A DNA stretch of 64,000 nt from an uncultured Candidatus Saccharibacteria bacterium (GCA_964537815.1 CAZIDJ010000002.1:996-64995); one strand, 5' to 3'; shown: positions 26,848 through 43,229, numbered from the stretch's first letter. Made by a program: numbers and translations. Notes: generated by a model from the sequence alone, not told the origin.

Positions 26848-26861
26848 CGTATACTAAAGAC

Positions 26862-27884: not shown

Positions 27885-28158
27885 AAGGAAACCAAAGAGG
27901 AGCAGTGCCATAGTGAGAGAACGTCAGATTACCAAAGTACGAAATAGTACATCGCGCAACTGGGTTTTAACGCTGTTGGCTCTTAGCGTGGCTGGGTTTG
28001 TTGGCTGGGCGGCAGTGATCTGTTGGATGAATTTGCATCACGATGCCTACATGGTTTTTGCGGCGATTACGTTGACACTTACGGCTTTGCTTTTCTTTGT
28101 AGCTGGAATTACTAGCAAGGCAGAAGAGTTCTTTTTGGCACTGATCGCCTGGTGGTAA
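27865..28158 (+). CDS. hypothetical small two-TM membrane protein (start uncertain)
   Basis: Two hydrophobic helices after a basic N-terminus; overlaps the end of the previous gene. Confidence 0.4.
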   Translation: MKLTIGKRKPKRSSAIVRERQITKVRNSTSRNWVLTLLALSVAGFVGWAAVICWMNLHHDAYMVFAAITLTLTALLFFVAGITSKAEEFFLALIAWW

Positions 28159-28207
28159 ACATTATAATACTATTGTAATGTTTTGTATTTTATGCTAGTA
28201 TGTAAAC

Positions 28208-28417
28208 ATGACTATTACGACAACTCAAAAGATTATAAAAATCGGTACAAGCAGGGGTGTAACACTTCCGGCTAAACAGCTGAAGGCATTGGGTGTTCGT
28301 GAGGGCTCAGAGGTAAAGATAACCGTTGAGGCCGTACAAAGATCAAATGTACTCGATGAATACGAGCGGTTTAAAAAGCAGTACGGTGAAACACTGCGTA
28401 ATCTTGCGGATCGATGA
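28208..28417 (+). CDS. AbrB/MazE/SpoVT-fold antitoxin (Phd-equivalent partner of Doc)
   Basis: IIKIGTSRGVTLPAKQLKALGVREGSEVKI swapped-hairpin motif; ATGA overlap with doc. Confidence 0.75.
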   Translation: MTITTTQKIIKIGTSRGVTLPAKQLKALGVREGSEVKITVEAVQRSNVLDEYERFKKQYGETLRNLADR

Positions 28418-28794
28418 AATATTTAACACTTGAAGAGATGCTGCAGCTTCATTTTGCAGTGATTGAAGACTTTGGAGGGTCACACGGTGTTCGAGATGAG
28501 GGTCGGCTGAAGTCTGTTGTGCTAGCTCCAGCACAAGAAGTGTTCAGTGCAGAACAATACCAGACTGTTCACGAAAAAGCAGCAGTATACCTGCGCAACA
28601 TCATCGGCGACCTTCCATTTGCCGATGGTAACAAAAGGACAGGCGTGACGGTAGCTGGTGTATTTTTATTCCGAAATGGTGTAAAGTTAACGGCTAGCCC
28701 AAAAGAACTAGAAGATTTTGCAGTTAAAATCACGGTAGATCATCTAGAGATTGCTGAAATTGCTGTGTGGCTACAGCAACATACCACTGACTAA
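28414..28794 (+). CDS. doc: Doc (death-on-curing, Fic-fold) family protein with Leu in place of the catalytic His
   Basis: Motif reads DLPFADGNKRTG instead of HPFxDGNKRT; the CTT codon is at 28612-28614. Confidence 0.8.
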   Translation: MKYLTLEEMLQLHFAVIEDFGGSHGVRDEGRLKSVVLAPAQEVFSAEQYQTVHEKAAVYLRNIIGDLPFADGNKRTGVTVAGVFLFRNGVKLTASPKELEDFAVKITVDHLEIAEIAVWLQQHTTD

Positions 28795-28993
28795 CCGCTA
28801 AACTTGTATTTTTTTACACTTCTCAGGGGTGAACCTTTTTAAGATGAGGAGTTACAGTCGAGAGACGTAACACTAGTCTAGTGTGGGAGAGTTTGTGCAC
28901 ACAACTTTTCCACATAAACTAAACGCTATATATGGTGTACGCTATATGTAGCGTAGAGCGTGGTAAGTACAAAGAACTTGTATAATAAAAAAG

Positions 28994-29809
28994 ATGATTG
29001 ATAGGTTTATTCACCGAACGCTTGGCATACCGTACACATTGCATGTGTACGAACAGCGGCGGGTTAAGAAAGCACAAACAACCTTAGTGTTTTTGCATGG
29101 TGTAGGCGCATCGGGTGCTGCGTGGGATGAGGTACTTAAGCAGTTAGCACACGAACAGGTGAACATACTTGTGGTAGATTTATTAGGGTTTGGGGCATCG
29201 CCTAAGCCGACGTGGGCGCAGTATAGCGCTACTATGCAGTCGAAGGCGCTGGCAAAAACACTGCTCAGTAAAGGTGTAGTGGGGAATGTGGTGCTGGTTG
29301 GTCATTCGATGGGCGCATTGATTGCAATAGAATTCGCGAAGCGATACGAGCGTTTCGTACGATCACTCGTGCTATGCAGCCCACCGTTATACGATGATAA
29401 GACGCGGAAGTATTTACCAGATCGTGACCGACAGCTAAAAGCAGTGTACCAATTTGCGCTGCGCTACCCTGATCAGCTGGTGCAGATGAGCATAATGGCG
29501 AAGAAATATGGACTTGTGGGGCAAGCGTTCACAATTACTCCAGATACTGTCGATGACTATAGTTCTGCGTTAAAAGCAGCAATTATTAATCAAACATCGT
29601 TAAAAGATATTGCGCAGCTTTCGCTTCCAATTGAGATTATATACGGCAGTATCGACCCATTCGTAATAGGAGGCCACTTTAAGAAATTAGCAAAGGAAAA
29701 TCAAAATGTTCACGTTGCTTCGTTCATTGGTGGGCATGAGATAGAAGGTCGGTATGTTGCTTTAGTAACGAATACAATAAAAAAACGAGTTCGTACGATA
29801 GCTACGTAA
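28994..29809 (+). CDS. alpha/beta hydrolase
   Basis: HG oxyanion motif (VFLHGVGAS) and nucleophile elbow GHSMGA. Confidence 0.8.
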   Translation: MIDRFIHRTLGIPYTLHVYEQRRVKKAQTTLVFLHGVGASGAAWDEVLKQLAHEQVNILVVDLLGFGASPKPTWAQYSATMQSKALAKTLLSKGVVGNVVLVGHSMGALIAIEFAKRYERFVRSLVLCSPPLYDDKTRKYLPDRDRQLKAVYQFALRYPDQLVQMSIMAKKYGLVGQAFTITPDTVDDYSSALKAAIINQTSLKDIAQLSLPIEIIYGSIDPFVIGGHFKKLAKENQNVHVASFIGGHEIEGRYVALVTNTIKKRVRTIAT

Positions 29810-29833
29810 TGTCTGAGGGCAAGGAGCAAAAGT

Positions 29834-30469
29834 ATGACTAAGAAGAACCTCTATTATCTTCATGGTTTTGGTGTGACCGCTACAAATCCAGACGTGTTTG
29901 TTGATATTGTCAGGGCATTTCCGGGATATAATGCACTGCATATAAACTTGAATGACAGAGATGTAAACGGAGATTTGCACGTTTCACCTTTGTCAGAACA
30001 GACTAGGCGAGCTGAGCTGCTTGCGAGTGGTGCTGGTGCTGGTGACATACTAATTACTCATTCACAAGGAGCGTTGGTTGCTGCACTTGCGAATCTACCA
30101 AGACTGCGAAAGATTGTTATGTTAGCGCCGCCACCGTACGCGTCGTCAAAGAAAATGCTGGAACGCATTAAAAATCGAGGCGGCGATCTGCTAAATGGTG
30201 TGTGGAAGTTTCCAAGTGTGAATGGGGCGACGCGCTGGGTCCCTCAAGATTACCTACATGAACTAGAGCAAATAGACGCTTTGGTGGCATATAGCAAACT
30301 AGCAGCACACCAGCAAGTAGTAGTTATTGAAGCGCTTGATGATGAGGTTCTAACAACGCACGATATGTCGGGCGTGCAGGGCGCAGAGATAGTAAAAATT
30401 CGCGCCGACCACAATTTCACCGACGGCAGTCGGGCGCGACTAATTAGTACGTTGCAAACAGTTCTCTAG
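29834..30469 (+). CDS. alpha/beta hydrolase-like protein
   Basis: YLHGFG and an ITHSQGA nucleophile-elbow-like motif; 211 aa. Confidence 0.6.
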   Translation: MTKKNLYYLHGFGVTATNPDVFVDIVRAFPGYNALHINLNDRDVNGDLHVSPLSEQTRRAELLASGAGAGDILITHSQGALVAALANLPRLRKIVMLAPPPYASSKKMLERIKNRGGDLLNGVWKFPSVNGATRWVPQDYLHELEQIDALVAYSKLAAHQQVVVIEALDDEVLTTHDMSGVQGAEIVKIRADHNFTDGSRARLISTLQTVL

Positions 30470-30470
30470 C

Positions 30471-30752
30471 TTATTTTTTGCCAAACAGTCCACCGAGCGT
30501 ATCGAGTATGCCACCTTTTTTCTTTTTGCTGCCACCAGTTAGTTGTCCAAGCATATCGAGTTTATCAAGCACGCCCTGAGCATCTTTGAAATCAATTTTA
30601 CCGTCACCGTTTGAATCAGCTACACCTTTTAGGTTCCCTAAAACTTCGCTGTACTGACCAAATTGCGCCTGGAGGTCTTCTAAATCTTTCGCATTAATTT
30701 TGCCGTCACCGTTTGCATCACCGCGCTTTTTAAGTTCGTTTAATAAGTCCAT
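30471..30752 (-). CDS. small EF-hand-type calcium-binding protein with a Lys/Gly-rich tail
   Basis: Two canonical 12-residue loops, DANGDGKINAKD and DSNGDGKIDFKD; SD GGAGG. Confidence 0.7.
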   Translation of the reverse strand: MDLLNELKKRGDANGDGKINAKDLEDLQAQFGQYSEVLGNLKGVADSNGDGKIDFKDAQGVLDKLDMLGQLTGGSKKKKGGILDTLGGLFGKK

Positions 30753-30790
30753 TATGCACCTCCGTTATTTCTAGTGTATAGTATAGCATA

Positions 30791-31282
30791 ATGACAAATT
30801 ATATCTCTGAAAAGAACGTACTCGATTTTTTGGATCAGCACGCCATCGACTATGAGTACCTGACGCATAAAGCGGTCTATACGGTAGAAGAAGCTGCAGC
30901 AGAGCTACCTGGACGGACAGAACTAAAGAACTTGTTTATTCAGGACGACAAGGCTAGGCGACAATACCTAGTAATTATGCCTGGCATGAAGCGTTTGGAC
31001 CTAAAGCAACTCGCAAGTGATTTGGGTGAAAAGAAAGTGCGGTTTTGCAGTACAGAAAAAGTTGAGGCTATGTTGGGTGTGAAACCGGGATCGGTGTCTA
31101 TTTTTTGCTGTATAAATGAGACTGCTCAGCACATAAAGATAATTGTCGATGAAGAACTACTTGGCGAACCCGACTTAGGCTTTCACCCAATTATCAATAC
31201 CGCAACAGTGTATGTTGCGACTGAAGCAATCCACAAAATTTTATCGGCGTTGCCGCAAGAATCATGCATACAAAAGCTATAA
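30791..31282 (+). CDS. YbaK/ProX-type aminoacyl-tRNA deacylase domain protein
   Basis: YLTHKAVYTVEEA...KNLFIQDDK...YLVIM..KRLDLKQLA pattern of prolyl-tRNA editing domain proteins. Confidence 0.75.
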   Translation: MTNYISEKNVLDFLDQHAIDYEYLTHKAVYTVEEAAAELPGRTELKNLFIQDDKARRQYLVIMPGMKRLDLKQLASDLGEKKVRFCSTEKVEAMLGVKPGSVSIFCCINETAQHIKIIVDEELLGEPDLGFHPIINTATVYVATEAIHKILSALPQESCIQKL

Positions 31283-32523
31283 TGAAGACAATTGCTGATG
31301 TTGAGGCGATGCTCGAACCGTATATTAACGTGGCAACGAAGACATTTCGCAAAGGAATTACTACAGACAGAACACTTGCGCTTGCGAAACATGTAGGTAG
31401 CCCACACGAACGCCTGCGAGTAGTGCATGTAGCTGGCACAAGTGGTAAAACATCGACCAGCTATTTTATGCGCAGCATGCTTGAAGCAGCTGGCAAGAAA
31501 ACAGGCCTCACTGTTTCACCACATGTAATGGGTATTACTGAGCGTGTTCAGGTCAGTGGCCAGCCACTATCTGATAAAACGTTTGTGCGGTACATGAATG
31601 AGTTTTTTGACTACATAGTTTCTGCACCTGAAACCCCTACGTATTTTGAAATATTAATCGTTTTTGCGCTGTGGGTTTTTGACAAAGAGGGCGTTGACTA
31701 TGCGGTGATAGAAACGGGCTTGGGTGGCCTCCACGATTCATCGAATATATGTAGACGTGAAGATAAATTGTGTATCATAACTGACATAGGCTACGACCAT
31801 ATGCACGTACTGGGCAATACACTAGCAGACATTGCTTCACAAAAATGCGGCATTATTGCATCCGGCAATACGGTGATGATATACAAGCAAAGTGGCGCAG
31901 TAATGGCTGTTGCAAAAAAAGCAGCAAACGCTATGAACGCGGACCTTCACGTTATAGAGCCAACTAAAAATCATCTGTATCAGCAGCGAAACTGGCGGCT
32001 TGCCTATCAGGCGTACGAACTACTCCGTAACAGAGACCACTTGCCGGAACTATCGAAAGAATCACAACAGCAGACGCGAAATACTGTGGTGCCGGGAAGA
32101 ATGGATGTATACACTGTAGGGACAAAGACGGTTTTGCTGGATGGGGCGCATAACGAACAAAAAATGGATGCGTTTTGGCAGAGCTTTGAACACAAATATT
32201 CTGGCGTAAAACCGCTCGTAATCTTTGGTATAAAGAATGGCAAAGATATACAGGCGGTTATTCCGCACATCACAGCACACGCACGGCGTATTGTCACGAC
32301 AAAAGCGCATGCCACTCAAGACTTGGGATTGGGGCTTGGAATGGAAGCGAACGACGTCGCTGACGCAGTATATAAACAAAGCGGAATAGTGTGCGATGTG
32401 GTGCCGCATTCGCATGATGCAATCAGGCACGCTTTGCAACAAGATGAGGCGATGATAGTGGTGACGGGATCATTATATTTGGTGGCAGAAATACGTACAA
32501 TTTTGAATACGAATATGCTATAG
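31282..32523 (+). CDS. folC: folylpolyglutamate synthase / dihydrofolate synthase-like Mur ligase family protein
   Basis: VVHVAGTSGKTSTS P-loop, VIETGLGGLHDSSN, LLDGAHN; the TAATG overlap with the ybaK-like stop favours ATG 31282 over 31264. Confidence 0.8.
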   Translation: MKTIADVEAMLEPYINVATKTFRKGITTDRTLALAKHVGSPHERLRVVHVAGTSGKTSTSYFMRSMLEAAGKKTGLTVSPHVMGITERVQVSGQPLSDKTFVRYMNEFFDYIVSAPETPTYFEILIVFALWVFDKEGVDYAVIETGLGGLHDSSNICRREDKLCIITDIGYDHMHVLGNTLADIASQKCGIIASGNTVMIYKQSGAVMAVAKKAANAMNADLHVIEPTKNHLYQQRNWRLAYQAYELLRNRDHLPELSKESQQQTRNTVVPGRMDVYTVGTKTVLLDGAHNEQKMDAFWQSFEHKYSGVKPLVIFGIKNGKDIQAVIPHITAHARRIVTTKAHATQDLGLGLGMEANDVADAVYKQSGIVCDVVPHSHDAIRHALQQDEAMIVVTGSLYLVAEIRTILNTNML

Positions 32524-32554
32524 TTACTTCAACACTAACTGTGAGGTAAAAACT

Positions 32555-33193
32555 ATGGCACAAGCCAAAAAACAAGTAAAAGCAGCTCCACTTTCTGAGG
32601 AAGAAAAGGCAGCGAAAGAAGTAGCCCGCGTGCAAAATGAGCGTGAACGCAATATGAAAGGTGGCTTTTTCTACACAGCGGCCGTATATATTTTAAGCCG
32701 TTTCTTTTTGACAAAGAATCGTTACCAGAACTGGACAAGAGGACGCCGCATTTTGGTTGGTTGGCTGCTATGGCTCATCGTACTTCCAATCATCCCAGTT
32801 GTAGCGATCATTGTTTGGTATCTTAACGATCCTGAAGGTTTTAAAAAGAGCCCGTGGGCAAAGGCACTGATTGCTCTCGCTGTGATGTGGGCTGGCTACG
32901 CTGGATTGGTAGTGACCGAGCCGTCGCAAGCTGATGTTAATGGTAAGTACTCGCCAATTCAAACAGCACCAAACGGTGAAACCAAAGTAGTGAACGACAA
33001 CCCTGCTGCGGTTCCAAGCGATGTATCAAAAGAAAAGATTAAAAACCAAGCAACTTCAAATGCTTCGAACGGACGTACATTTGAAAACTGTACCGAAGCC
33101 TTTGATGCCGGCGTGTTTAATATTCGTCGCAGCGATGCAAGTTACCAGAACAAGCTTGACCGCGACAATGACGGCATAGCCTGCGAAAAGTAG
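32555..33193 (+). CDS. membrane protein with a C-terminal Excalibur calcium-binding domain
   Basis: Three hydrophobic helices, then NCTEAFDAGV...DRDNDGIACE (Excalibur signature). Confidence 0.75.
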   Translation: MAQAKKQVKAAPLSEEEKAAKEVARVQNERERNMKGGFFYTAAVYILSRFFLTKNRYQNWTRGRRILVGWLLWLIVLPIIPVVAIIVWYLNDPEGFKKSPWAKALIALAVMWAGYAGLVVTEPSQADVNGKYSPIQTAPNGETKVVNDNPAAVPSDVSKEKIKNQATSNASNGRTFENCTEAFDAGVFNIRRSDASYQNKLDRDNDGIACEK

Positions 33194-33231
33194 CAGACAT
33201 TCTATACCACCAAAATTTTATTGAATCGGTT

Positions 33232-33264
33232 ACGTAAAAAAGCGCCATGTGCGCTTTTTTACGT
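33232..33264. terminator. bidirectional intrinsic terminator
   Basis: ACGTAAAAAAGCGC / GCGCTTTTTTACGT: a perfect 14-bp stem, 5-nt loop, with A-tract and T-tract flanks. Confidence 0.8.
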
Positions 33265-33317
33265 ATTGCATTGGTAACTATCGCAGCTAAACAAAACTTT
33301 ATATATAATAGGTAGCT

Positions 33318-34328
33318 ATGGAAGAAACTACACAAACGGCTGAACAACAAACAACTGAAAACATAACGGACATTTTTAACTGGGCAAATTTGGTAGATGG
33401 CATAAAAAATGAGCTAGACATAGAGCTATTTGTCTTTAACAAAAATTACACACCCTATACACTGCGACACGATAAAAATCTCGAGATGCAAATACGCGCG
33501 TTGTTTTTGTACGACATTCTAAATGACGTTGCTATGGGCGCGGGTACTGGGCTTAGTATTCACGAATTTGAAAAGAGCGATGGCGGGGAAGATATTTTGC
33601 TACGAACACGCGTCGCTAATGTAGGTAGAGCGGAAACGTTGCTGCATTTACTTGAAAAAGAGCGTAGCGACGTAGAGGAATTTAGTGAAGACGAGCACGA
33701 ATTTAAACGTATAAAAGGTATAGTTGTGAAGTTTTCACCGAAAAGCGAGAACGCGAAAGTAAAACCGTTTTATGTTGCAAAAGCAGTGGCGCAAAGTAAC
33801 GTGCTAAAGGGCACGGTTAGCTGGGAGCTGAATGGCGGCAAGTTTGAGCAATTTAAGGCAGACGTAGGAATTAAACTACCAGCAGATAATCAAGTGCTGG
33901 TAGTTGATGAAGATATATTCGTGTTTAACCAGAGTAAGTTTGAAAAGCTTTTCCAGTATGAATACAAAAAGCAATTGTTGGCTGATAAAAAGGTTGCTGA
34001 GATCGAAAAGGCCTACAAGCTAAGTTTTCCTGAAGGAGTCGACTTGCAGGCGCTGGTGCGCGATAAGAAAAATATTGTTAATAAACTGCAAAAACTTGAA
34101 ATAGGTGCCGTTAGCCAAGAAAAGGCGATTGAGTATGCAGACGAAATGCAACTCGAGCTCATGAGCGATGAAAAAGACAACATCATTATTATGGATGGGA
34201 ATGATCTGAGCATGTTTGTTAACCTGATTAACGAAGACTACATTACGAGTGCGATAACTGGTAAACGGTACGAAATAAAGAGTAAAAAATTGTTAGGCGA
34301 GCCTGACGGCGAAGCTCCCCGCGGATAA
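33318..34328 (+). CDS. DUF4868 / KwaB-like protein (tentative, assigned from memory of the family pattern)
   Basis: 336 aa and AT-richer than its neighbours. IKGIVVKF, VLVVDEDIFVFNQSKFEKLFQYEY and C-terminal FVNLINEDYITSAITGKRYEI resemble conserved blocks of Kiwa KwaB. Confidence 0.5.
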   Translation: MEETTQTAEQQTTENITDIFNWANLVDGIKNELDIELFVFNKNYTPYTLRHDKNLEMQIRALFLYDILNDVAMGAGTGLSIHEFEKSDGGEDILLRTRVANVGRAETLLHLLEKERSDVEEFSEDEHEFKRIKGIVVKFSPKSENAKVKPFYVAKAVAQSNVLKGTVSWELNGGKFEQFKADVGIKLPADNQVLVVDEDIFVFNQSKFEKLFQYEYKKQLLADKKVAEIEKAYKLSFPEGVDLQALVRDKKNIVNKLQKLEIGAVSQEKAIEYADEMQLELMSDEKDNIIIMDGNDLSMFVNLINEDYITSAITGKRYEIKSKKLLGEPDGEAPRG

Positions 34329-34338
34329 CGAAACGCAT

Positions 34339-35070
34339 ATGTGGCTTTTCGGGCAGAAAAAAACTTCATCTGAAACGAAAATAAACCTGGTAACTGATAT
34401 TTTGCCGCAGCGCGTTCGCGATCAAATCTACCACAACGATGGAATGGTGGATGCGCGTAGTATACGTGAGCTTATGGTGCCAGCCCGCTGTCAGCAGCGT
34501 TTTGGAGTGTACGCCACTCTAAAAGCAGCCAGCGGCGATATCGAACGCCAGGCAGCGGTGTTGACTGCGCTGATTGAAAAGCAGTTTGACTTTGATAGGA
34601 TGACCTATGATGATGTTGAGCTGGTGTTGGCCGAAATGGGACACGGCCTAGGTAGGGAAGTAAATGTTAAAAAACTTGCTGAAATATCGCGAAAAGATTT
34701 TTCTAACTGGACCAGCAGTGCATGGGAGCAGTATAAGCGCAATGTTCCTGAGGCTATTGATGTATTTCTGCACGCATACACTACTGTAATCGCAATCGAT
34801 GGAATTATGCGATGTGTGCGTGAAAAAAGACAGCGGCTTCACATCCTACTACCAAACGAGTTTGAATCTGCTAATGCATGTGTGGGGTTTTCTATTGCAG
34901 ATAATGAATTGACGCTGCTAGCGCGTGATTTTCAGCGTCCTGCCGGTGCAGTTGTTGTTGACGACATTGAGAACACCGGCAAGGCACGCGAACAAGTGCA
35001 TAAATTTTGGGGAGATAGCCCGTCGGTTGAATATAGAGCGCTAAGCTCTTCTGGAAATACTACGACGTAG
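34339..35070 (+). CDS. hypothetical protein with a phosphoribosyltransferase-like (PRPP-loop) C-terminal half
   Basis: AVVVDDIENTGKAREQV matches the hhhhDDxxxTGxT PRTase motif, preceded by VIAIDG; 10 nt downstream of the KwaB-like gene. Confidence 0.45.
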   Translation: MWLFGQKKTSSETKINLVTDILPQRVRDQIYHNDGMVDARSIRELMVPARCQQRFGVYATLKAASGDIERQAAVLTALIEKQFDFDRMTYDDVELVLAEMGHGLGREVNVKKLAEISRKDFSNWTSSAWEQYKRNVPEAIDVFLHAYTTVIAIDGIMRCVREKRQRLHILLPNEFESANACVGFSIADNELTLLARDFQRPAGAVVVDDIENTGKAREQVHKFWGDSPSVEYRALSSSGNTTT

Positions 35071-35071
35071 G

Positions 35072-35614
35072 CTATTCGAACCGTACGATGACCCAGCCCC
35101 AGGGGCCGTTGTACCAGACATTTGCAGGGGGTGAAGGGTTGCTTGTAAACAGCGTTATGCCAGGGCAGTCTGGGCTATCAATTTTTCCAGTTGTTTGATT
35201 TTCCATGTTCTTAATCCATAAAACATAGTACGGACCTTTGGCAGCTGGGCAGCCGTTATCGCCAGCGTTGAATGTACGGTACCAGTAGCCTTTGGTTGCG
35301 ACTGTTGGGTCTTTAGGGTCTTTGAAGCTCGTGTTGTTAATAACAGTTTGGAGGCTATTTAAAAATGTCGTGTCGGTGCTGACTTCGAACGTGCCGGAGC
35401 CAGGGTTGGGGTTGGCGGCTGGAAATACTCGATTGTAGGCGCGGTAGGTTGAAAGTGCGTCCATAATGCTTTTTGCATCAACAGCACGCTTTGTGTCGCG
35501 TGCACGTGATTGTGAGCCTGAATAGTACACAACACCTATCATCGATAAAAGAGCGATGAGGGCAATTGTGATGGCAAGTTCTACCAATGTAAAACCACTT
35601 ACGCTTTTTCTCAT
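35072..35614 (-). CDS. type IV pilin-like protein (prepilin-type N-terminal cleavage/methylation domain)
   Basis: MRKSVSGFTLVELAITIALIALL class III signal; Cys pair in the C-terminal domain. Confidence 0.8.
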   Translation of the reverse strand: MRKSVSGFTLVELAITIALIALLSMIGVVYYSGSQSRARDTKRAVDAKSIMDALSTYRAYNRVFPAANPNPGSGTFEVSTDTTFLNSLQTVINNTSFKDPKDPTVATKGYWYRTFNAGDNGCPAAKGPYYVLWIKNMENQTTGKIDSPDCPGITLFTSNPSPPANVWYNGPWGWVIVRFE

Positions 35615-35701
35615 AGTGTGATTGTAACAACGTACTGATAGGAAGTAAAGCCGGGCCGCATGTAGGCAGCATGGGGACCATTAGTATATACTTTCTAGAG
35701 A

Positions 35702-37216
35702 ATGAATCAACAACTTGCACTGGAAATAATGCTTGATGGGCAGCACGTTTTTTTGACGGGAGCGGCAGGGAGCGGCAAAACCTATGTGCTAAATCAATTC
35801 ATCGCGCTCGCAAAACACCAGGGTAAACACGTAAGTGTGACAGCAACCACTGGGTTGGCTGCATCGCATTTGGGCGGAACCACTATTCATAGCTGGAGCG
35901 GCATAGGAGTAGCTGATGAGTTGCCACCAAATTTTGCCGAACATTTAGCCAAAGGGCGACGAGAGATTATTGAAAAAACAGACGTGTTGATTATTGACGA
36001 AATAAGCATGCTGCATGATTTTCGACTCGATATGGTTGATGAAGTCTGCCGTATTGTACGTAAAGAACCAGATGTGCCATTTGGTGGCATACAAGTTATT
36101 ATGAGTGGCGACTTTTTCCAGCTGCCGCCTGTCAATCGAGGCGCAAGTAGTGGTGGATTTGTAGTGAACAGCCGGGCGTGGCAAGAGATTGATCCAGTAA
36201 TCTGCTATTTGGGTGAACAATATCGACAAGAAGATGGGATGCTACATGAGATTTTGACGGCAATGCGGAGTAAAGATTTGCGACGACGGCACGTAGAGGC
36301 GCTGATGGAACGGGGAGAATTTGCACCAGATGAAGGTGCAGTATATACCGAGCTTCACACGGTAAACGTAGATGTGGATACACAAAACGAAGCCCGTTTG
36401 AGAGACCTTGGAGGTGACGAAGTTAGTTATGAGCAAACCAGTACAGGCAGTGATAGCTATGTAGAAAATTTGCAACGCAGCGTGCTGGCACCAAAAGTAC
36501 TGCGGTTAAAAAAAGGTGCTTTGGTGATGGCTGTGAAAAACAGTCTTGATAAAAAATATGTAAATGGCAGCCTTGGTACGGTGGTGGACTTTGATCCACG
36601 GAGTGACTACCCAGTGGTGCAATTTACAAATGGTCGAGAGGTGACGATGGAGCCTGATACTTGGGAGCTGCGCGATGGCGATAAGAAGCGCGCGAGCATA
36701 ACGCAAATTCCGCTGCGACTGGCGTGGGCAATCACTGTGCATAAAAGTCAGGGAATGACACTTGATGCTGCGCTGATTGATCTTCGTAAAGCATTTGTTG
36801 AAGGTATGGGCTATGTGGCGCTAAGTCGCGTGCGTAGCCTGGAAACATTGTACCTGGCAGGAATAAATCGTATGGCGTTACAAATTAGTGAAGAAGCGCA
36901 TGGGATTGATGCGATGCTCAGAGAGAAGTCACATGATGACGCCAAGACGCATGCTCATTTAGCAGCGAATGCGAAAACAAGAGAGGTAAACTCGCCAAAG
37001 AAAAAGAACGGGGCAAGTGGGTGGGCCGAAAAATTAGCAAAAATGCGCAAAGAACATCCAAATGCTTATATGCCATGGACTAATGAACAAGACGCACTAC
37101 TAAAACAAGAATTTCAAAATGGTGTTGACTTACATACGCTTTCAAAACTGCTTGGTCGGCATGAGGGCAGTATAAAAATGCGGCTGCAGAAGCATTTTGG
37201 TGAAGATATTGCGTAG
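35702..37216 (+). CDS. Pif1/RecD-family (SF1B) DNA helicase with a C-terminal HTH-like extension
   Basis: Walker A GAAGSGKTY, LIIDEISML, SGDFFQLPPV, AITVHKSQGMT, ALSRV. Confidence 0.85.
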   Translation: MNQQLALEIMLDGQHVFLTGAAGSGKTYVLNQFIALAKHQGKHVSVTATTGLAASHLGGTTIHSWSGIGVADELPPNFAEHLAKGRREIIEKTDVLIIDEISMLHDFRLDMVDEVCRIVRKEPDVPFGGIQVIMSGDFFQLPPVNRGASSGGFVVNSRAWQEIDPVICYLGEQYRQEDGMLHEILTAMRSKDLRRRHVEALMERGEFAPDEGAVYTELHTVNVDVDTQNEARLRDLGGDEVSYEQTSTGSDSYVENLQRSVLAPKVLRLKKGALVMAVKNSLDKKYVNGSLGTVVDFDPRSDYPVVQFTNGREVTMEPDTWELRDGDKKRASITQIPLRLAWAITVHKSQGMTLDAALIDLRKAFVEGMGYVALSRVRSLETLYLAGINRMALQISEEAHGIDAMLREKSHDDAKTHAHLAANAKTREVNSPKKKNGASGWAEKLAKMRKEHPNAYMPWTNEQDALLKQEFQNGVDLHTLSKLLGRHEGSIKMRLQKHFGEDIA

Positions 37217-37224
37217 CCAGAGTA

Positions 37225-37276
37225 CGCCAAGCTGAGTGCGCTACCATCAAACAATGGTAGCGCACTCAGCTTGGCG
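37225..37276 (+). terminator. perfect 23-bp-stem hairpin (6-nt loop) 9 nt after the helicase stop, with no U-tract
   Basis: CGCCAAGCTGAGTGCGCTACCAT caaaca ATGGTAGCGCACTCAGCTTGGCG; every pair checked by hand. Confidence 0.6.
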
Positions 37277-37312
37277 CTGTACGACCCCAGGTACATACGA
37301 TATAATAAAGCT

Positions 37313-38578
37313 ATGATAAAGCAGTCAAAACTGCGATTTCCGAGGAAGTTTTTGTGGGGAGCAGCAACTTCGGCGCACCAAGTTGAAGGAGGTAACCACA
37401 ACCAATGGTCGGTGTGGGAACTTGAGAATGCGAAATCTTTGGCGATGCAGGCGGGGTATACGCTCAACGAGCTAGAAATTTGGCCTGACATCAAACGGCT
37501 TGCCACAACTCCTGGCAACTACGTTTCGGGGCGCGCCGTTGATCACTACCGCTGCTACGAAGCTGACTTTGACCTACTAAAAAAAATGAATTTAACCGCA
37601 TTTCGATTTAGTATAGAGTGGTCGAGAATTGAGCCAGAAGAAGGGATGTGGGACAGTAAAGCAGTCCAGCACTATACGTCGTATATTGATGCACTGCGGG
37701 TTCGTGGGATTGAGCCCGTTATGACGCTGATTCATTTTACGCTTCCTGAATGGTTTGCAAAAAAAGGCGGGTTTGAAAAGCGTCGGAATATACGCTATGT
37801 GGTGCGTTACGCCGAATACGTGATGACGCAGCTTGGTAAAAATGTGCGATTTATTCTTACTATCAATGAACCGGAAATTTATGCCACCGAAAGTTACTTA
37901 CACGCCAAGTGGCCGCCACAAAAACAAAACAAAACGCTATTTTTTAAAGTTCTGCAAAACCAGATAGCTGCCCACAATCGGATTGCACGAATGATTCACG
38001 GTCTAGCGCGCGGGCACAAGGTCTCCATTGCTAAAAACTCAGCCTTTTACTATCCGGGTGATAGCGCCACAATGACAAAAGTTACCAGCGCAGGTCTGCA
38101 GACTATGCAAGATGACTATGTGCTCAAACAAGTGATAAAGACCTGTGATTTTATTGGTCTTAATTATTATTTTAGCAATCGAGTGTACGGCAACAGAGTT
38201 CACAATCCTGGCCTGAAACAGAGTGACATGGCGTGGGATATGCAGCCAGAGAATATTGAATTTGTGCTAGAACGACTGTGGCGTAAATATAAAAAGCCGA
38301 TTATCATCACCGAAAATGGCGTGGCTGATATGCACGATTCTGTAAGGAAATGGTGGCTTGCGCATACACTTGTTGTCATGAGCAACGCCATAAAAAACGG
38401 CGTGAAACTGCAGGGCTACCTACACTGGAGTTTGCTCGACAATTTTGAATGGGCAAACGGTCGTTGGCCAAGATTTGGATTGGTCGAAGTAAATTATAAA
38501 ACGATGGAACGGCAAATCAGACCGAGCGGCAAATGGTTTGGTACAATAGTGGGGAAGCTACGAAAGGAATCTTGGTAA
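37313..38578 (+). CDS. GH1 family beta-glucosidase
   Basis: FLWGAATSAHQVEGG, acid/base TINEP, nucleophile ITENG; ATG 37313 is preferred because the track start lies inside the hairpin. Confidence 0.9.
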   Translation: MIKQSKLRFPRKFLWGAATSAHQVEGGNHNQWSVWELENAKSLAMQAGYTLNELEIWPDIKRLATTPGNYVSGRAVDHYRCYEADFDLLKKMNLTAFRFSIEWSRIEPEEGMWDSKAVQHYTSYIDALRVRGIEPVMTLIHFTLPEWFAKKGGFEKRRNIRYVVRYAEYVMTQLGKNVRFILTINEPEIYATESYLHAKWPPQKQNKTLFFKVLQNQIAAHNRIARMIHGLARGHKVSIAKNSAFYYPGDSATMTKVTSAGLQTMQDDYVLKQVIKTCDFIGLNYYFSNRVYGNRVHNPGLKQSDMAWDMQPENIEFVLERLWRKYKKPIIITENGVADMHDSVRKWWLAHTLVVMSNAIKNGVKLQGYLHWSLLDNFEWANGRWPRFGLVEVNYKTMERQIRPSGKWFGTIVGKLRKESW

Positions 38579-39588
38579 TGACTCGACACACAAACATCGT
38601 CGTGATTGGTGGAGGCACGGGTACTCATGCCATGCTTGAAAGTTTGAAGCACTACAGTGATAATTTAACTGCGATTGTTGGCATGGTTGATGATGGTGGG
38701 AGTCAAGGCGTCTTGCGCAACGAGCTTGGTACCAGGCCACCGGCTGATGCCTGGAAATGTATGACGGCGCTCAGTGATTCGCCAAAACTTTCGGCACTTT
38801 TCAAGTATCGATTCGAAGAAGGTACGTTTAAGGGGCACTCAGTTGGTAATTTATTTTTGGCAGGCCTCGAAAAAATGGACGGAAACTTTGCAGACGCGCT
38901 GCAAACAGCCAGTGAAGTGCTCCGTGTCAACGGCCGGGTCTTACCAGCTACGCTCGATGATGTACGACTGATGATGCGCTGGAATGATGAGGACAAAGAG
39001 CTTCACGGTGAGGTGATTGTTGATGATGCGGTATTTGAACACGATCCGCGTAAAGCTGAGCTGCACATAGTGCCAGAAGCTATGGCAAATCAAGAAGCGC
39101 TTGATGCAATACGCGATGCCGACTTGGTAGTTATTGCACCGGGTGACATTTATACATCATTGGGGCCACTACTTGTCATACAAGGGTTTGGGGAAGCGCT
39201 AGCGCAAACAAAGGCACTCGTTACATACGTGTGCAATCTTGTCACGAAGCACGGCCACACCGATGGTTTTAGTGTGCTTGATCATGTGCAAGAAATTGAA
39301 CGATTTGCTGGGCAACGAGTGGTTGACATGGTGTTCTATAATACCCAGATGCCGCAATCGAGCCAGGTAATGGCCTATGAAGCGGAGGACGCGCATGTCG
39401 TTACGTATGACAGTGATGAACTGATTCGACATGGGTATAAGGTTGTGCCAGGCAATTATCTCGGTGTGCCGACCCAAAAAGAAACCGCGGATGTTTTACC
39501 AGTCACGCGGGGATTTATTCGTCACGACACCAAAAAAATTGGAAAGGAGCTGCTACACGCCTATGAGGCGTGGGGAAAGGGGGAATGA
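38578..39588 (+). CDS. yvcK: YvcK/CofD-like (UPF0052, gluconeogenesis factor) protein
   Basis: IVVIGGGTGTHAML, VGMVDDGGSQGVLR; TAATG overlap with the GH1 stop. Confidence 0.85.
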   Translation: MTRHTNIVVIGGGTGTHAMLESLKHYSDNLTAIVGMVDDGGSQGVLRNELGTRPPADAWKCMTALSDSPKLSALFKYRFEEGTFKGHSVGNLFLAGLEKMDGNFADALQTASEVLRVNGRVLPATLDDVRLMMRWNDEDKELHGEVIVDDAVFEHDPRKAELHIVPEAMANQEALDAIRDADLVVIAPGDIYTSLGPLLVIQGFGEALAQTKALVTYVCNLVTKHGHTDGFSVLDHVQEIERFAGQRVVDMVFYNTQMPQSSQVMAYEAEDAHVVTYDSDELIRHGYKVVPGNYLGVPTQKETADVLPVTRGFIRHDTKKIGKELLHAYEAWGKGE

Positions 39589-39592
39589 ATCG

Positions 39593-40366
39593 ATGACACC
39601 AATTGAACACGAACAGGCACCACACAGTCGCGTTGTCGCCCTGATCGACGTTGATCGGACACTGATTAAATCTGATTATGTTTTTGGAGTAGCTATGCAT
39701 GCAGCGAGACAACTTGGCTTAGACGAGGCGACTGAAGCAGAACTAACGAGGCGGGAGCAGGAAAACCAAGGTAATGCGTTTGACTATCTAGCTGAACTTA
39801 GTCGGTTGGCACCTAGTATCGATCATTCTAAAATAGTTGAACGAATTCTTGCTGACTACGAAGGGGTTAACGCCAGCGAACTGATGAGCAACGTTTTTGC
39901 ACCTGGTGCGTTTGATCTTCTTGACGTAGTACATGAGACGTCTACCCGAGGTATGTTGCTGACGGCAGGTGGTGTGGAGACGCAAACCATGAAACTGCAG
40001 CTCGTCGAAAAACTGCTCGAACATATGGGTATGAAAATGTTTCCGTGGGTGATAGTGGATGATTCGCAGCAAGAGAAAACTGCTTTGGCAGCAAGTGTGT
40101 ACGATGCTGACAGGCAAGAATTTGACTTTGTGGCTATGGCAAGACTTGGGAAGGCTTCAAGTGGTGTCGAGATGCCAGCGGCAACAGACGTTGAGTGGGT
40201 ATATGTATTTGATGATAAAACAAGTAACACAGCACCAACACATTGCGATGCGGTGGTTGGCGTGCTGGTTGATCGGGCTGAGCGACAACCAGATGGTGAA
40301 GAGCGAATTCCTCTAGATGACGCGGCTCTATTACTACGTGATCTGGTACTGCGTTCTGACGCATAG
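39593..40366 (+). CDS. HAD superfamily hydrolase-like protein
   Basis: DxDxT motif (LIDVDRTLI) at the N-terminus; ATG lies 5 nt after the yvcK stop. Confidence 0.55.
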   Translation: MTPIEHEQAPHSRVVALIDVDRTLIKSDYVFGVAMHAARQLGLDEATEAELTRREQENQGNAFDYLAELSRLAPSIDHSKIVERILADYEGVNASELMSNVFAPGAFDLLDVVHETSTRGMLLTAGGVETQTMKLQLVEKLLEHMGMKMFPWVIVDDSQQEKTALAASVYDADRQEFDFVAMARLGKASSGVEMPAATDVEWVYVFDDKTSNTAPTHCDAVVGVLVDRAERQPDGEERIPLDDAALLLRDLVLRSDA

Positions 40367-40409
40367 TGCCACGTGAACCCACAAAAGAAGGGTGTGGTAT
40401 CATGATGGC

Positions 40410-40637
40410 ATGAGCACAAAAAAGAAGACACCTGCTGCACCTAAAGCAATTAAGTCTGCTAATAAGTCAAGAAAAATTACCTCGCGCGCGGTGGTGTTTA
40501 CCACAGGTGCAGATGTGAAAACGGCACTTTTGATTGTTTCAGTGACAATCAACCTTTTTATACTTTGTTTGTGGGTGGCGCTGCAGGTTACATCATATTA
40601 CGATCAGGCTCTGGTAAACTTTTTCATTCATCGTTAA
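40410..40637 (+). CDS. hypothetical small membrane protein
   Basis: Basic N-terminus plus one TM helix; TGGTATCAT extended -10 lies 6 nt upstream of the ATG. Confidence 0.45.
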   Translation: MSTKKKTPAAPKAIKSANKSRKITSRAVVFTTGADVKTALLIVSVTINLFILCLWVALQVTSYYDQALVNFFIHR

Positions 40638-40652
40638 GCCTAGTGGTAATTG

Positions 40653-40691
40653 ATAAATAGTGGTGCGAGCTATGGCCGCACCACTATTTAT
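40653..40691 (+). terminator. intrinsic terminator hairpin (15-bp stem)
   Basis: ATAAATAGTGGTGCG agctatggc CGCACCACTATTTAT. Confidence 0.65.
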
Positions 40692-40754
40692 GTGGGGGTG
40701 ATAGTAAAACTGTGGAAAACTTGCACATTTATGTAAAAAATGTCAGAAAAGTAC

Positions 40755-40807
40755 TTGCATGTGGGTGAAAGTGGGTAGTATAGTAGGGGTAGTGGAAAAA
40801 AGTGGGT
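40755..40807 (+). promoter_or_regulatory. mraZ/dcw promoter overlapped by phased GTGGGT boxes (putative MraZ operator)
   Basis: TTGCAT 40755-40760, 18-nt spacer, TATAGT 40779-40784. GTGGGT at 40761, 40771 and 40802, with degenerate GTAGGG at 40783 and GTGGAA at 40792 (about 10-bp phasing). Confidence 0.6.
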
Positions 40808-40888
40808 AACCACCACCACGAAACAAACACCACTTAACAAATAACTATCAAAATTACACTCTTTCAAAAGAGGAACGCTACACGCGCA

Positions 40889-42814: not shown

Positions 42815-42854
42815 CCAGGGTAGAAACAAACACATAAAAAACAAACACCACCTC

Positions 42855-43199: not shown

Positions 43200-43229
43200 C
43201 TACTGCCGTAAGGTACCTAAGCAACGCGT

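What the first reader, a model, noticed from the sequence alone, without database searches (positions are those of the whole stretch)
33318..35070. Orphan KwaB(DUF4868)-like gene paired with a phosphoribosyltransferase-like gene: a candidate non-canonical Kiwa-type defence cassette
Two co-directional ORFs (33318..34328 and 34339..35070) lie 10 nt apart and form an isolated unit.

Boundaries:
- Upstream is a strong 14-bp-stem bidirectional terminator (33232..33264).
- Downstream, a convergent pilin gene ends 2 nt after the second ORF.
- The first ORF is visibly AT-richer than the flanking housekeeping genes, which suggests horizontal acquisition.

First ORF: its blocks IKGIVVKF, VLVVDEDIFVFNQSKFEKLFQYEY and the C-terminal FVNLINEDYITSAITGKRYEI resemble my recollection of the DUF4868 family, the KwaB effector of the Kiwa anti-phage system.

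Why it is unusual: canonical Kiwa has a multi-TM kwaA immediately upstream, and none is present here. The nearest membrane-protein gene has an Excalibur domain and is cut off by the terminator. The partner instead carries a PRPP-loop-like motif (AVVVDDIENTGKAREQV, preceded by VIAIDG) typical of type I phosphoribosyltransferases. I am not aware of this pairing as a described system. A Pif1-like helicase lies just beyond the intervening pilin gene.
Basis: partly seen in the sequence, partly recalled or inferred. Interest (0 to 1): 0.75.

Follow-up and report, generated by a model that had tools for sequence, protein, structure and literature searches.

The report
KwaA-less KwaB gene beside Pif1 helicase
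The KwaB-like gene is real, but it is not a newly acquired defence cassette: it is an anchor-less relative of the Kiwa anti-phage protein that nearly all sampled Saccharibacteria inherit next to a Pif1 helicase, and the "phosphoribosyltransferase-like" gene is an occasional add-on found just upstream of that helicase.

Summary
Observation confirmed; interpretation partly supported.

- **ORF1 (33318..34328)** is a true but very divergent KwaB homologue. It passes the Pfam KwaB threshold, matches PADLOC KwaB nearly full-length, and its only significant structural matches are solved KwaB structures. No KwaA exists in the window or in 84 related loci.
- **It is not horizontally acquired.** At least 368 Saccharibacteria species genomes carry it. 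In the 80 fetched it lies in one chromosomal block (RNase HI, KwaB-like, Pif1, GH1, CofD/YvcK). Its low GC is a family-wide trait (80 of 83 genomes).
- **Its conserved neighbour is the Pif1-like helicase.** Pif1 lies within 3 kb in 60 of 64 genomes, often abutting, and stays adjacent where the gene order is inverted (Southlakia, L122).
- **It is dispensable in culture.** Published Tn-seq calls both genes non-essential in Southlakia.
- **ORF2 (34339..35070)** belongs to a rare, unannotated Patescibacteria family with a conserved PRPP-loop-like motif and a weakly PRTase-like C-terminal domain. It is absent from all 80 species representatives. Its five closest relatives all sit immediately upstream of pif1.

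The real unit is KwaB-like plus Pif1, with ORF2 as a sporadic accessory. Function is inferred: a conditional DNA-handling or DNA-surveillance module.

The parts
33232..33264 (.). Perfect 14-bp inverted repeat (A6...GCGC / GCGC...T6), a plausible bidirectional intrinsic terminator. It separates the Excalibur membrane-protein gene from the KwaB-like gene.
   Evidence: Sequence read. RNA fold gives dG -21.7 kcal/mol and z = -4.41, with 0 of 200 shuffles folding as well.
33318..34328 (+). KwaB-like protein (336 aa) with an N-terminal Rossmann-like region and a C-terminal DUF4868 domain. It belongs to a KwaA-less, vertically inherited clade found across Saccharibacteria.
   Evidence: Pfam KwaB 39.5 bits (cutoff 26.3). 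PADLOC KwaB E = 3.8e-12, nearly full-length. NCBIfam KwaB equivalog only 46.4 bits against a cutoff of 200. Foldseek: the only significant hits are KwaB structures 9mrx, 9mtn and 9nyu (E about 5e-9, 14% identity). 2572 homologue clusters, the top 120 at 67-85% identity (the 100% hit is the window's own sequence), all source-named ones from Saccharibacteria. At least 368 GTDB species genomes.
34339..35070 (+). ORF2 (243 aa), a member of a rare unannotated Patescibacteria family. It has an N-terminal helical domain (about residues 24-135) and a C-terminal alpha/beta domain (about 142-236) carrying a conserved PRPP-loop-like motif (RPxxAVxxDDxxxTG, residues 200-214). It is a lineage-restricted accessory gene that, in its closest relatives, sits directly upstream of pif1.
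   Evidence: 75 cluster representatives in the exhaustive HMMER search. Conserved columns. AF2 model pLDDT 90.2, pTM 0.87. Weak PRTase signals. No Pfam, PADLOC, NCBIfam or PHROG hit. Genomic context.
35072..35614 (-). Type IV pilin-like gene (prepilin N-methylation motif), convergent with ORF2. Pilins are the commonest occupants of the variable slot between the KwaB-like gene and pif1.
   Evidence: PF07963 E = 4.6e-5. TIGR02532. The pilin cluster accounts for 16 of 68 slot proteins across loci.
35702..37216 (+). Pif1/RecD-like SF1B DNA helicase (504 aa) with a C-terminal HTH-like extension. It is the conserved neighbour of the KwaB-like gene across Saccharibacteria.
   Evidence: PF05970 E = 1.1e-35 and Pif1_2B domain. 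Dda-like helicase phrog_325 E = 2e-65, and residues 398-497 hit a D5-like regulator PHROG. Downstream of KwaB within 3 kb in 60 of 64 species genomes, and within 100 nt in 26.
32555..33193 (+). Membrane protein with a C-terminal Excalibur Ca-binding domain. It is the upstream neighbour and is not a KwaA.
   Evidence: PF05901 E = 3.5e-12. No PADLOC hit at E <= 1. A homologue of this protein is the immediate upstream neighbour of the KwaB-like gene in only a few loci (window lineage, L003-L005, L012).
37271..39588 (+). GH1 glycosidase and CofD/YvcK genes. These are housekeeping synteny anchors showing that the locus lies in a conserved chromosomal block leading to mraZ and the dcw cluster.
   Evidence: Synteny. 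Identity to the window: GH1 57.9% and CofD 51.8%, against 66.7% for KwaB-like.

Best explanation
ORF1 encodes a KwaA-independent member of the KwaB fold family. It has been fixed and vertically inherited in Saccharibacteria, so it is not a recently acquired orphan.

Its conserved genomic partner is the Pif1/RecD-like SF1B helicase at 35702..37216. The ancestral block is RNase HI, KwaB-like, Pif1, GH1, YvcK. The short interval between the KwaB-like gene and pif1 is a variable slot. In this lineage the slot holds ORF2 and a pilin gene.

ORF2 belongs to a rare Patescibacteria family with a helical N-domain and a reduced PRTase-like, phosphate- or nucleotide-binding C-domain. In the few lineages that have a close relative of ORF2, it sits directly upstream of pif1. 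It is therefore an optional accessory of the helicase and KwaB module, not KwaB's defining partner.

Inferred mechanism:
- As in E. coli KwaB, the DUF4868 half of a KwaB-like dimer probably binds DNA without sequence specificity.
- With no KwaA to tether and gate it at the membrane, the protein would be soluble.
- It probably acts together with the 5'-3' helicase on particular DNA substrates such as incoming or foreign linear DNA, DNA ends, or stalled forks and R-loops.
- The role is conditional, because both genes are dispensable in phage-free laboratory co-culture.

My split of the function: domesticated genome-maintenance or incoming-DNA processing about 45%; dedicated KwaA-independent anti-phage or anti-MGE immunity about 35%; other about 20%.

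Shown: homology, absence of KwaA, vertical inheritance, linkage to Pif1, ORF2's distribution, and non-essentiality (from the literature). Inferred: DNA binding, cooperation with Pif1, and any ligand binding by ORF2.
For: KwaB homology:
- Pfam and PADLOC hits.
- Foldseek gives only the KwaB structures 9mrx, 9mtn and 9nyu as significant hits (E about 5e-9, full-length).

No KwaA.

Class-wide vertical inheritance:
- 2572 homologue clusters, the top 120 at 67-85% identity (the 100% hit is the window's own sequence), and every hit that carries a source name is from Saccharibacteria, including RAAC3_TM7_1.
- At least 368 GTDB species genomes, including the complete genomes TM7i and GWC2_44_17 and oral taxon HOT-348.
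- The same block is present in sediment, groundwater and oral lineages.
- The KwaB-like protein is more conserved than the neighbouring GH1 and CofD in 35 of 35 paired genomes.
- Low GC is a family trait in 80 of 83 genomes.

Pif1 linkage:
- Pif1 lies within 3 kb downstream in 60 of 64 genomes. The comparison values are 42 of 57 for Pif1 to GH1 (p = 0.003) and 40 of 68 for RNase H to KwaB (p = 2e-6).
- 26 genomes have gaps of 100 nt or less, and several have overlapping or abutting stop and start codons (-1 to 4 nt).
- Adjacency survives order inversion in L122 and in Southlakia epibionticum (SEML1_0264 helicase, SEML1_0265 DUF4868; PMC10633639 Table S1/S2).

Conditional role: both genes are called NE at all three Tn-seq time points with stable read counts.

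ORF2:
- Real family with a conserved motif and a confident model.
- Four weak PRTase signals: the PDB profile search, Foldseek against PDB, hhalign P = 1.4e-4 on the PRPP loop and Foldseek against BFVD.
- The closest relatives are always directly upstream of pif1.
- ORF2 is absent from 80 of 80 species representatives.

KwaB DNA binding and fork stalling are taken from PMC11785009.
Against: - Saccharibacteria genomes are highly collinear, so part of the KwaB-Pif1 linkage may be inherited synteny without functional coupling. GH1 and CofD are also linked at 74-77%.
- The 80 loci analysed are the best KwaB matches out of at least 368. This inflates apparent conservation: a more divergent KwaB-like gene (45% identity) exists in L122.
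- Four loci have no Pif1 within 7 kb.
- No direct evidence exists that this protein binds DNA. It shares only 14% identity with the solved KwaB, the AF2 model of the DUF4868 half is poor (pLDDT below 50), and the DNA-contact residues could not be compared.
- Prevalence across all Saccharibacteria could not be measured, because the scan was truncated and the denominator is unknown.
- ORF2's PRTase-likeness never reaches significance in any library.
Confidence: 0.62

Rival explanations
1. One reading: ORF1 and ORF2 form a horizontally acquired two-gene anti-phage cassette, a non-canonical Kiwa in which a PRTase-like enzyme replaces KwaA as KwaB's partner.
For: The ORFs are co-directional and 10 nt apart, with a hairpin upstream. 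ORF1 is KwaB-like. ORF2 has a conserved PRPP-loop-like motif. KwaB followed by an ORF2 homologue recurs in one distant genome, L006.
Against: - None of 80 species genomes carrying the KwaB-like gene has an ORF2 relative in the locus.
- In L091 and L122 the ORF2 homologue follows RNase H and precedes Pif1, with KwaB either absent from that position or downstream of Pif1.
- More distant ORF2 relatives lie in unrelated contexts.
- The KwaB-like gene is vertically inherited, and its AT-richness is a family trait.
- ORF2 has no PADLOC or Pfam hit.
Confidence: 0.07
2. A dedicated KwaA-independent immune system. KwaB-like plus Pif1 helicase, with ORF2 as an optional sensor or modulator, is a chromosomally fixed anti-phage or anti-plasmid system of Saccharibacteria. 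KwaB-like blocks invader DNA replication and the helicase supplies recognition or processing, replacing membrane sensing by KwaA.
For: - The only characterised function of the KwaB fold is anti-phage (PMC11785009).
- Both genes are non-essential without phage.
- The Pif1 protein hits PADLOC candidate-defence helicase models (PDC-S68, type IV RecD, PDC-M16A).
- KwaA-less KwaB-like genes are carried by phages in moron-like positions, as defence and exclusion genes often are.
- PRTase-like domains occur in conflict systems. Pfam has a PRTase-CE family, weakly hit by one ORF2 relative.
Against: - Class-wide conservation at roughly 62-85% identity and fixed synteny among housekeeping genes are atypical of defence genes, which are patchy, MGE-linked and fast-evolving. 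Canonical Kiwa is 53% MGE-associated and shaped by HGT.
- The NCBIfam KwaB equivalog threshold is missed by a wide margin.
- The slot and flanks contain no other defence genes.
Confidence: 0.3
3. Synteny only. The KwaB-like gene, pif1 and ORF2 are functionally unrelated neighbours kept together by the general collinearity of reduced Saccharibacteria genomes. The KwaB-like protein acts alone, for example as a nucleoid-associated or other DNA- or nucleotide-binding protein.
For: GH1 and CofD/YvcK, which are clearly unrelated in function, are also conserved neighbours (74-77%). The slot between the KwaB-like gene and pif1 readily accepts unrelated genes. Four loci lack Pif1 nearby.
Against: KwaB-Pif1 linkage is significantly tighter than the other links in the block. 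It includes overlapping stop and start codons and survives inversion of gene order in two lineages.
Confidence: 0.2

Closest known systems
Kiwa anti-phage system (KwaA + KwaB; E. coli O55:H7 RM12579; structures 9mrx, 9mtn, 9nyu)
   Same: ORF1 has the KwaB architecture and fold: an N-terminal Rossmann-like region plus C-terminal DUF4868. Support comes from Pfam and PADLOC hits and from Foldseek (E about 5e-9, full-length).
   Different: - No KwaA membrane sensor in the window or in any related locus.
- Only 14% identity to the solved KwaB, and it fails the NCBIfam equivalog cutoff (46 against 200 bits).
- Vertically inherited and fixed across a bacterial class, rather than patchy and MGE-borne.
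- The conserved neighbour is a Pif1-like helicase.
Type I phosphoribosyltransferases (PF00156; HPRT, APRT, OPRT, UPRT, PyrR, PurR)
   Same: ORF2 has a beta-strand, loop, helix element carrying hhhhDDxxxTG. hhalign places it exactly on the PRPP-binding loop (P = 1.4e-4). The weak Foldseek hits with the highest probabilities in two libraries are PRTases.
   Different: - No Pfam hit, and no structural match with E <= 0.001. TM-scores are 0.37 or lower.
- The final Thr of the TGxT element is not conserved.
- A roughly 110-residue helical N-domain replaces the usual hood or N-terminal elements.
- Catalytic competence is unknown.
ComFA/ComFC (DNA-uptake helicase plus PRTase-fold protein of natural competence)
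   Same: By analogy only: a PRTase-like protein is encoded directly upstream of a DNA helicase, next to a pilin gene, in a naturally competent lineage (competence from PMC10633639).
   Different: - ORF2 lacks the ComFC Cys4 zinc finger. It has Cys only at positions 51, 159 and 181.
- ORF2 does not hit PF00156.
- The helicase is SF1B Pif1, not DEAD-box ComFA.
- Southlakia has a separate gene assigned KEGG K02242 in Table S1; that K02242 denotes ComFC is from my own knowledge.
- This is a lead from my own knowledge, not a tested relationship.
Bacterial Pif1/RecD2-family SF1B helicases
   Same: The neighbour at 35702..37216 has the PIF1 and Pif1_2B domains and is assigned KEGG K15255 in Southlakia.
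   Different: It has a C-terminal HTH-like extension, and its near-universal linkage to a KwaB-fold gene is not a described feature of bacterial Pif1.

Membership tests
Kiwa defence system | KwaB component with a DUF4868 domain (Pfam PF16162 above the gathering score) | tested here: met
   39.5 bits against a cutoff of 26.3, residues 131-314. PADLOC KwaB E = 3.8e-12 over residues 30-324. Foldseek to KwaB structures, E about 5e-9.
Kiwa defence system | Adjacent kwaA gene encoding a membrane protein of about 200 aa with 4 TM helices | tested here: not met
   The upstream gene is an Excalibur-domain protein with 2 hydrophobic segments by the simple hydropathy count used here and no PADLOC hit. 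None of the 6 multi-TM proteins in the 64-kb window hits KwaA. No 4-TM protein of about 200 aa lies upstream in 84 related loci.
Kiwa defence system | KwaB at equivalog level (NCBIfam NF041623 cutoff) | tested here: not met
   46.4 bits against a cutoff of 200.
Kiwa defence system | Patchy, HGT- and MGE-associated distribution typical of the system (PMC11785009) | tested here: not met
   At least 368 Saccharibacteria species genomes carry the gene; in the 80 fetched it lies in fixed chromosomal synteny. Low GC is a family-wide trait and not a signature of HGT.
Kiwa defence system | DNA-contacting residues of DUF4868 (E. coli KwaB N134, R142, R167, D169, K187, R233) and DNA binding | not testable with these tools
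   No sequence alignment to the solved KwaB could be obtained. The AF2 model of the DUF4868 half has pLDDT below 50.
Kiwa defence system | Protection against phage or plasmid | not testable with these tools
   Needs an experiment. The only relevant data are that the Southlakia orthologue is non-essential in phage-free co-culture.
Type I phosphoribosyltransferase (PF00156) | Profile match above the Pfam gathering score | tested here: not met
   ORF2 has no hit at E <= 1. Only 1 of 43 family members reaches E = 0.066.
Type I phosphoribosyltransferase (PF00156) | PRPP-binding loop: four hydrophobic residues, two acidic residues, then xxxTGxT, on a strand-loop-helix element | tested here: inconclusive
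   AVVVDDIENTGKA lies on strand 205-210 followed by helix 214-224. D208, D209 and G214 are nearly invariant, but the last Thr is not conserved. hhalign aligns the motif to the PRTase loop with P = 1.4e-4 and probability 53%.
Type I phosphoribosyltransferase (PF00156) | PRTase core fold (five-stranded parallel sheet) recognisable by structure comparison | tested here: inconclusive
   No hit with E <= 0.001. The best PRTase hits have probability 0.8-0.96, rmsd 4.1-8 Å over 104-140 columns and TM-score 0.37 or lower.
Pif1-like SF1B helicase (neighbour gene) | PIF1 helicase domain and 2B domain | tested here: met
   PF05970 E = 1.1e-35 and PF21530 E = 2.5e-7.
ComFC (competence PRTase-fold protein) | N-terminal Cys4 zinc finger plus PF00156 domain | tested here: not met
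   ORF2 has Cys only at positions 51, 159 and 181, with no CxxC pairs, and no PF00156 hit.

The most novel reading that the evidence does not exclude
Saccharibacteria have domesticated the DNA-binding effector of Kiwa. A KwaA-free KwaB-fold protein works with a Pif1 helicase, and in some lineages with a PRTase-like ligand-binding accessory, as the lineage's fixed cytoplasmic gatekeeper for DNA entering the cell. It would capture and process or neutralise phage DNA and pilus-imported DNA. That would link anti-phage immunity to natural competence and nucleotide scavenging in these nucleotide-auxotrophic epibionts. Phage-encoded KwaA-less homologues would then be either the source of the gene or counter-measures against it.
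Probability: 0.15. Interest if true: 0.8.

Novelty: new variant of a known kind. Interest (0 to 1): 0.55.

Why it matters
Kiwa is currently understood as an obligate two-part machine. KwaA senses membrane perturbation, then tethers and gates KwaB, which keeps a non-specific DNA binder from harming the host.

This locus shows a KwaB-fold protein that an entire bacterial class keeps without KwaA, under strong purifying selection, next to a Pif1 helicase. That raises three possibilities:
- the KwaB fold has a KwaA-independent mode of control;
- it has a second, non-immune function in DNA metabolism;
- a defence effector has been domesticated as a core gene in ultra-small epibionts that otherwise carry few recognised defence systems (that last point is from general knowledge of CPR genomes, not tested here).

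The question is directly testable. Southlakia epibionticum is genetically tractable, and both genes tolerate transposon insertions.

The finding also shows that annotating these genes as 'Kiwa' from a KwaB hit alone would be misleading. It additionally flags a small uncharacterised Patescibacteria protein family, the ORF2 family, that is positionally tied to the helicase.

Tried and rejected
- **Locus scan with the ORF2 family profile** failed because no stretch was conserved enough. I inverted the test and scanned with the KwaB-like alignment instead.
- **Sequence searches of the PDB** with ORF1 and with its family profile found no KwaB. Only the fold search did.
- **tblastn of ORF1 against plasmids** gave no match at E <= 1, so I obtained no canonical KwaA-linked comparator sequence and made no residue-level comparison.
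- **The AF2 model of ORF1** from a shallow alignment was poor in the DUF4868 half. I used it only for fold recognition.
- **The 222-aa gene in the slot of the nearest relative (L003)** is not an ORF2 homologue (hhalign probability 0.2%).
- **A regex search for canonical PRTases** in all fetched Saccharibacteria sequence found none. I used six E. coli K-12 PRTases for the profile comparison instead.
- **The Excalibur membrane protein as a cryptic KwaA:** rejected. It has no PADLOC hit, and a homologue is the immediate upstream neighbour of the KwaB-like gene in only a few loci (window lineage, L003-L005, L012).
- **AT-richness as evidence of HGT:** rejected.
- **The KwaB-Pif1 interval as a defence island:** rejected. 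Its contents are pilins, prephenate dehydratase, RNase H, an HD-domain protein and hypothetical proteins.
- **ORF2 as ComFC:** rejected as a member, because it has no Cys4 finger and no PF00156 hit. I kept it only as an analogy.
- **ORF2 as a spurious ORF:** rejected. It has 75 family representatives, syntenic homologues at 35-44% identity, and an AF2 model with pLDDT 90.
Full report
**1. Checking the observation**

They are on the same strand and 10 nt apart.

The upstream inverted repeat at 33232..33264 is a perfect 14-bp stem with an A6 run before and a U6 run after. It folds at -21.7 kcal/mol with z = -4.4 against shuffles.

A convergent pilin gene (35072..35614, prepilin N-methylation motif) ends 1 nt after ORF2.

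ORF1 really is AT-rich. Its GC of 0.41 is the lowest of 49 genes of at least 150 aa in the window (mean 0.478).

**2. ORF1 is a genuine but very divergent KwaB homologue, and there is no KwaA**

- Pfam PF16162 (KwaB) scores 39.5 bits against a gathering cutoff of 26.3.
- Five PADLOC KwaB models hit, the best nearly full-length at E = 3.8e-12.
- The AlphaFold model is only mediocre (pLDDT 61, with the C-terminal half below 50). Even so, its only significant PDB matches are the solved KwaB structures 9mrx, 9mtn and 9nyu (E about 5e-9, probability 1.0, about 330 aligned columns, 14% identity). The next hit has E > 1.
- At sequence level it is far from the characterised protein. PDB sequence searches miss KwaB altogether. 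NCBI's KwaB equivalog model gives 46 bits against a 200-bit cutoff.
- No KwaA was found. The upstream Excalibur-domain protein and all six multi-TM proteins in the 64-kb window have no KwaA hit in PADLOC.

**3. The gene is not an acquired orphan**

It is a vertically inherited gene found across Saccharibacteria.

- The homology search returned 2572 clusters. The top 120 are 67-85% identical (the 100% hit is the window's own sequence), and every hit that carries a source name is from Saccharibacteria or Saccharimonadales, including RAAC3_TM7_1.
- A scan of GTDB species representatives found at least 368 genomes before the search was truncated. These include the complete genomes TM7i and GWC2_44_17, oral taxon HOT-348, Nanosynbacteraceae and Microsaccharimonas.
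- In sediment, groundwater and oral lineages alike the gene sits in the same block, upstream of Pif1, GH1 and CofD/YvcK and leading to mraZ.
- RNase HI lies upstream on the same strand in 61 of 84 loci.
- Against the window, the KwaB-like protein (median 66.7% identity) is more conserved than GH1 (57.9%) and CofD (51.8%) in all 35 paired genomes. It is slightly less conserved than Pif1 (71.0%).
- Caveat: the loci were chosen by KwaB similarity, and a 45%-identical version exists in L122.
- The AT-richness that suggested horizontal transfer is an intrinsic property of the family. The gene is AT-richer than its flanks in 80 of 83 genomes, across locus GC of 36-56% (p about 2e-14).
- This contrasts with canonical Kiwa, which is shaped by HGT and about 53% MGE-associated. 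The authors of that study analysed only complete KwaA plus KwaB systems (PMC11785009).

**4. The conserved partner is Pif1, not ORF2**

| Link (GTDB representatives with enough sequence) | Within 3 kb | Fisher p against KwaB to Pif1 |
|---|---|---|
| KwaB-like to Pif1 | 60 of 64 (94%) | reference |
| Pif1 to GH1 | 42 of 57 (74%) | 0.003 |
| Pif1 to CofD | 44 of 57 (77%) | 0.016 |
| RNase H to KwaB-like | 40 of 68 (59%) | 2e-6 |

- In 26 genomes the KwaB-Pif1 gap is 100 nt or less, and in several the stop and start codons overlap or abut.
- Adjacency survives inversion of the gene order. L122 has RNase H, ORF2 homologue, Pif1, a hypothetical gene, then KwaB.
- Southlakia epibionticum ML1 has SEML1_0264 (helicase, 250274-251803) followed by SEML1_0265 (DUF4868, 251904-252917) (PMC10633639 Tables S1 and S2).
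- That study's Tn-seq calls both genes non-essential at all three time points. SEML1_0265 has stable normalised reads of 2590, 2504 and 2503. The function is therefore conditional.
- The interval between the KwaB-like gene and pif1 is a variable slot. It holds pilins (16 of 68 proteins), prephenate dehydratase, RNase H, an HD-domain protein and assorted hypothetical proteins. It holds no recognisable defence genes.

**5. ORF2**

- The word-index search made ORF2 look like an orphan. The exhaustive HMMER search found 75 cluster representatives of about 240 aa.
- The family has no Pfam, PADLOC, NCBIfam or PHROG match and no annotation anywhere. One cluster comes from Candidatus Paceibacterota.
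- The family conserves RPxxAVxxDDxxxTG. D208, D209 and G214 are nearly invariant, and P23, K62, K112 and G183 are invariant.
- A confident AF2 model (pLDDT 90, pTM 0.87) shows a helical N-domain and an alpha/beta C-domain. The motif lies on a strand-loop-helix element.

Four weak lines of evidence point to a PRTase-like C-domain:
- Five of the eight sub-threshold PDB profile hits are PRTases aligned on the motif.
- In the Foldseek PDB search, the highest-probability hits are PRTases (probability up to 0.96, rmsd 4.9 Å over 117 columns).
- The same holds in the viral structure library (probability up to 0.92, rmsd 4.1 Å over 104 columns).
- hhalign against six E. coli PRTases places the motif exactly on the PRPP loop (P = 1.4e-4, probability 53%, 39 columns).

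None of these is significant on its own, and TM-scores stay at or below 0.37. 'PRTase-like phosphate- or nucleotide-binding domain' is therefore reasonable, but 'a phosphoribosyltransferase' is not established.

**6. Is ORF2 a partner of KwaB?**

- None of the 80 species representatives has an ORF2 relative in the locus.
- The genomes that do have one are not sister lineages. The window's nearest relative (85% KwaB identity) and L006's nearest relatives all lack it.
- More distant family members (33% identity or less) lie beside SmpB, RuvX and PilM, NDK, or a PD-(D/E)XK nuclease.
- However, every member at 35% identity or more sits immediately upstream of pif1 inside this block:
  - window: KwaB, ORF2, pilin, Pif1;
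  - L006: KwaB, ORF2 homologue, Pif1;
  - L091: RNase H, ORF2 homologue, Pif1;
  - L122 and L123: RNase H, ORF2 homologue, Pif1, a hypothetical gene, KwaB.
- ORF2 is thus a sporadic accessory tied to the helicase and KwaB module. It is not KwaB's defining partner.

**7. Mechanism (inferred)**

E. coli KwaB binds DNA through DUF4868 without sequence specificity and stalls replication forks. KwaA's membrane tether is proposed to limit self-damage (PMC11785009).

A KwaA-less, presumably soluble homologue kept under strong purifying selection beside a 5'-3' SF1B helicase, and often near RNase HI, most plausibly acts with that helicase on specific DNA substrates. I split the function as follows:
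- about 45%: domesticated genome maintenance or processing of incoming DNA;
- about 35%: dedicated KwaA-independent immunity;
- about 20%: other.

The synteny-only alternative cannot be excluded, because these genomes are highly collinear.

**8. Novelty and verdict**

No paper in the held library links DUF4868, KwaB or Kiwa with Saccharibacteria or the CPR. The Southlakia study lists the gene only as a DUF4868 hypothetical protein.

I rate this a new variant of a known kind: a KwaA-less, class-fixed, Pif1-linked KwaB homologue. The cassette as originally proposed, KwaB plus PRTase acquired horizontally, is not supported. Interest is moderate at 0.55. The result is surprising for people who work on defence systems, and it is directly testable in a tractable organism. 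The function remains inferred.

Noticed in passing
L103-L121 (IMG/VR viral contigs), e.g. L105:5208-6173: Bona fide phage contigs of 30-45 kb carry a full-length KwaA-less KwaB-like gene. It is 31-37% identical to ORF1 and scores 59.5 bits on Pfam KwaB. One group has TerS, TerL and HNH before the gene and KilA-N after it. Another has a PD-(D/E)XK-FtsK fusion and an SNF2 helicase. Several contigs carry 7000000xxx sample numbers; I take these to be Human Microbiome Project samples (unverified). These are the closest non-Saccharibacteria relatives found here. Hosts are unknown.
   Followed up: partly
window 34329..35701, and the same interval in L001-L090: The short interval between the KwaB-like gene and pif1 behaves as an insertion hot-spot flanked by two highly conserved genes. 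It ranges from 0 to 2.5 kb and holds 39 different protein clusters across 84 loci, most often type IV pilins on the opposite strand.
   Followed up: partly
window 28208..28794: A small AbrB/MazE-type antitoxin ORF (69 aa) overlaps the start of a Fic/Doc-family ORF (126 aa), which looks like a toxin-antitoxin pair. The Pfam labels come from the identical genes in L007.
   Followed up: no
window 35702..37216, residues about 398-497: The Pif1-like helicase has a C-terminal extension that hits a 'D5-like transcriptional regulator' PHROG. In the Southlakia structural annotation the equivalent region is a tri-helical (HTH-like) domain. This is an extra DNA-binding module on the helicase.
   Followed up: no
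whole window (1..64000): RNase HI lies upstream of the KwaB-like gene in 61 of 84 related loci, and directly downstream in the nearest relative L003. It is absent from this entire 64-kb window, so this lineage has moved or lost it from the block.
   Followed up: partly
window 30471..30752 (minus strand): A 93-aa protein with repeated DxNGDGKI motifs (EF-hand or dockerin-like Ca-binding repeats) is conserved at the same position in the 84%-identity relative (L003-L005). With the Excalibur-domain membrane protein at 32555..33193, this makes two putative Ca-binding proteins upstream of the locus.
   Followed up: no
L126:209-985 and L126:1027-1755; L094:6001-7163: More distant ORF2-family members sit directly next to nucleic-acid enzymes: a PD-(D/E)XK nuclease in L126 and RuvX in L094. 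This hints that the family as a whole may be tied to DNA or RNA transactions.
   Followed up: no
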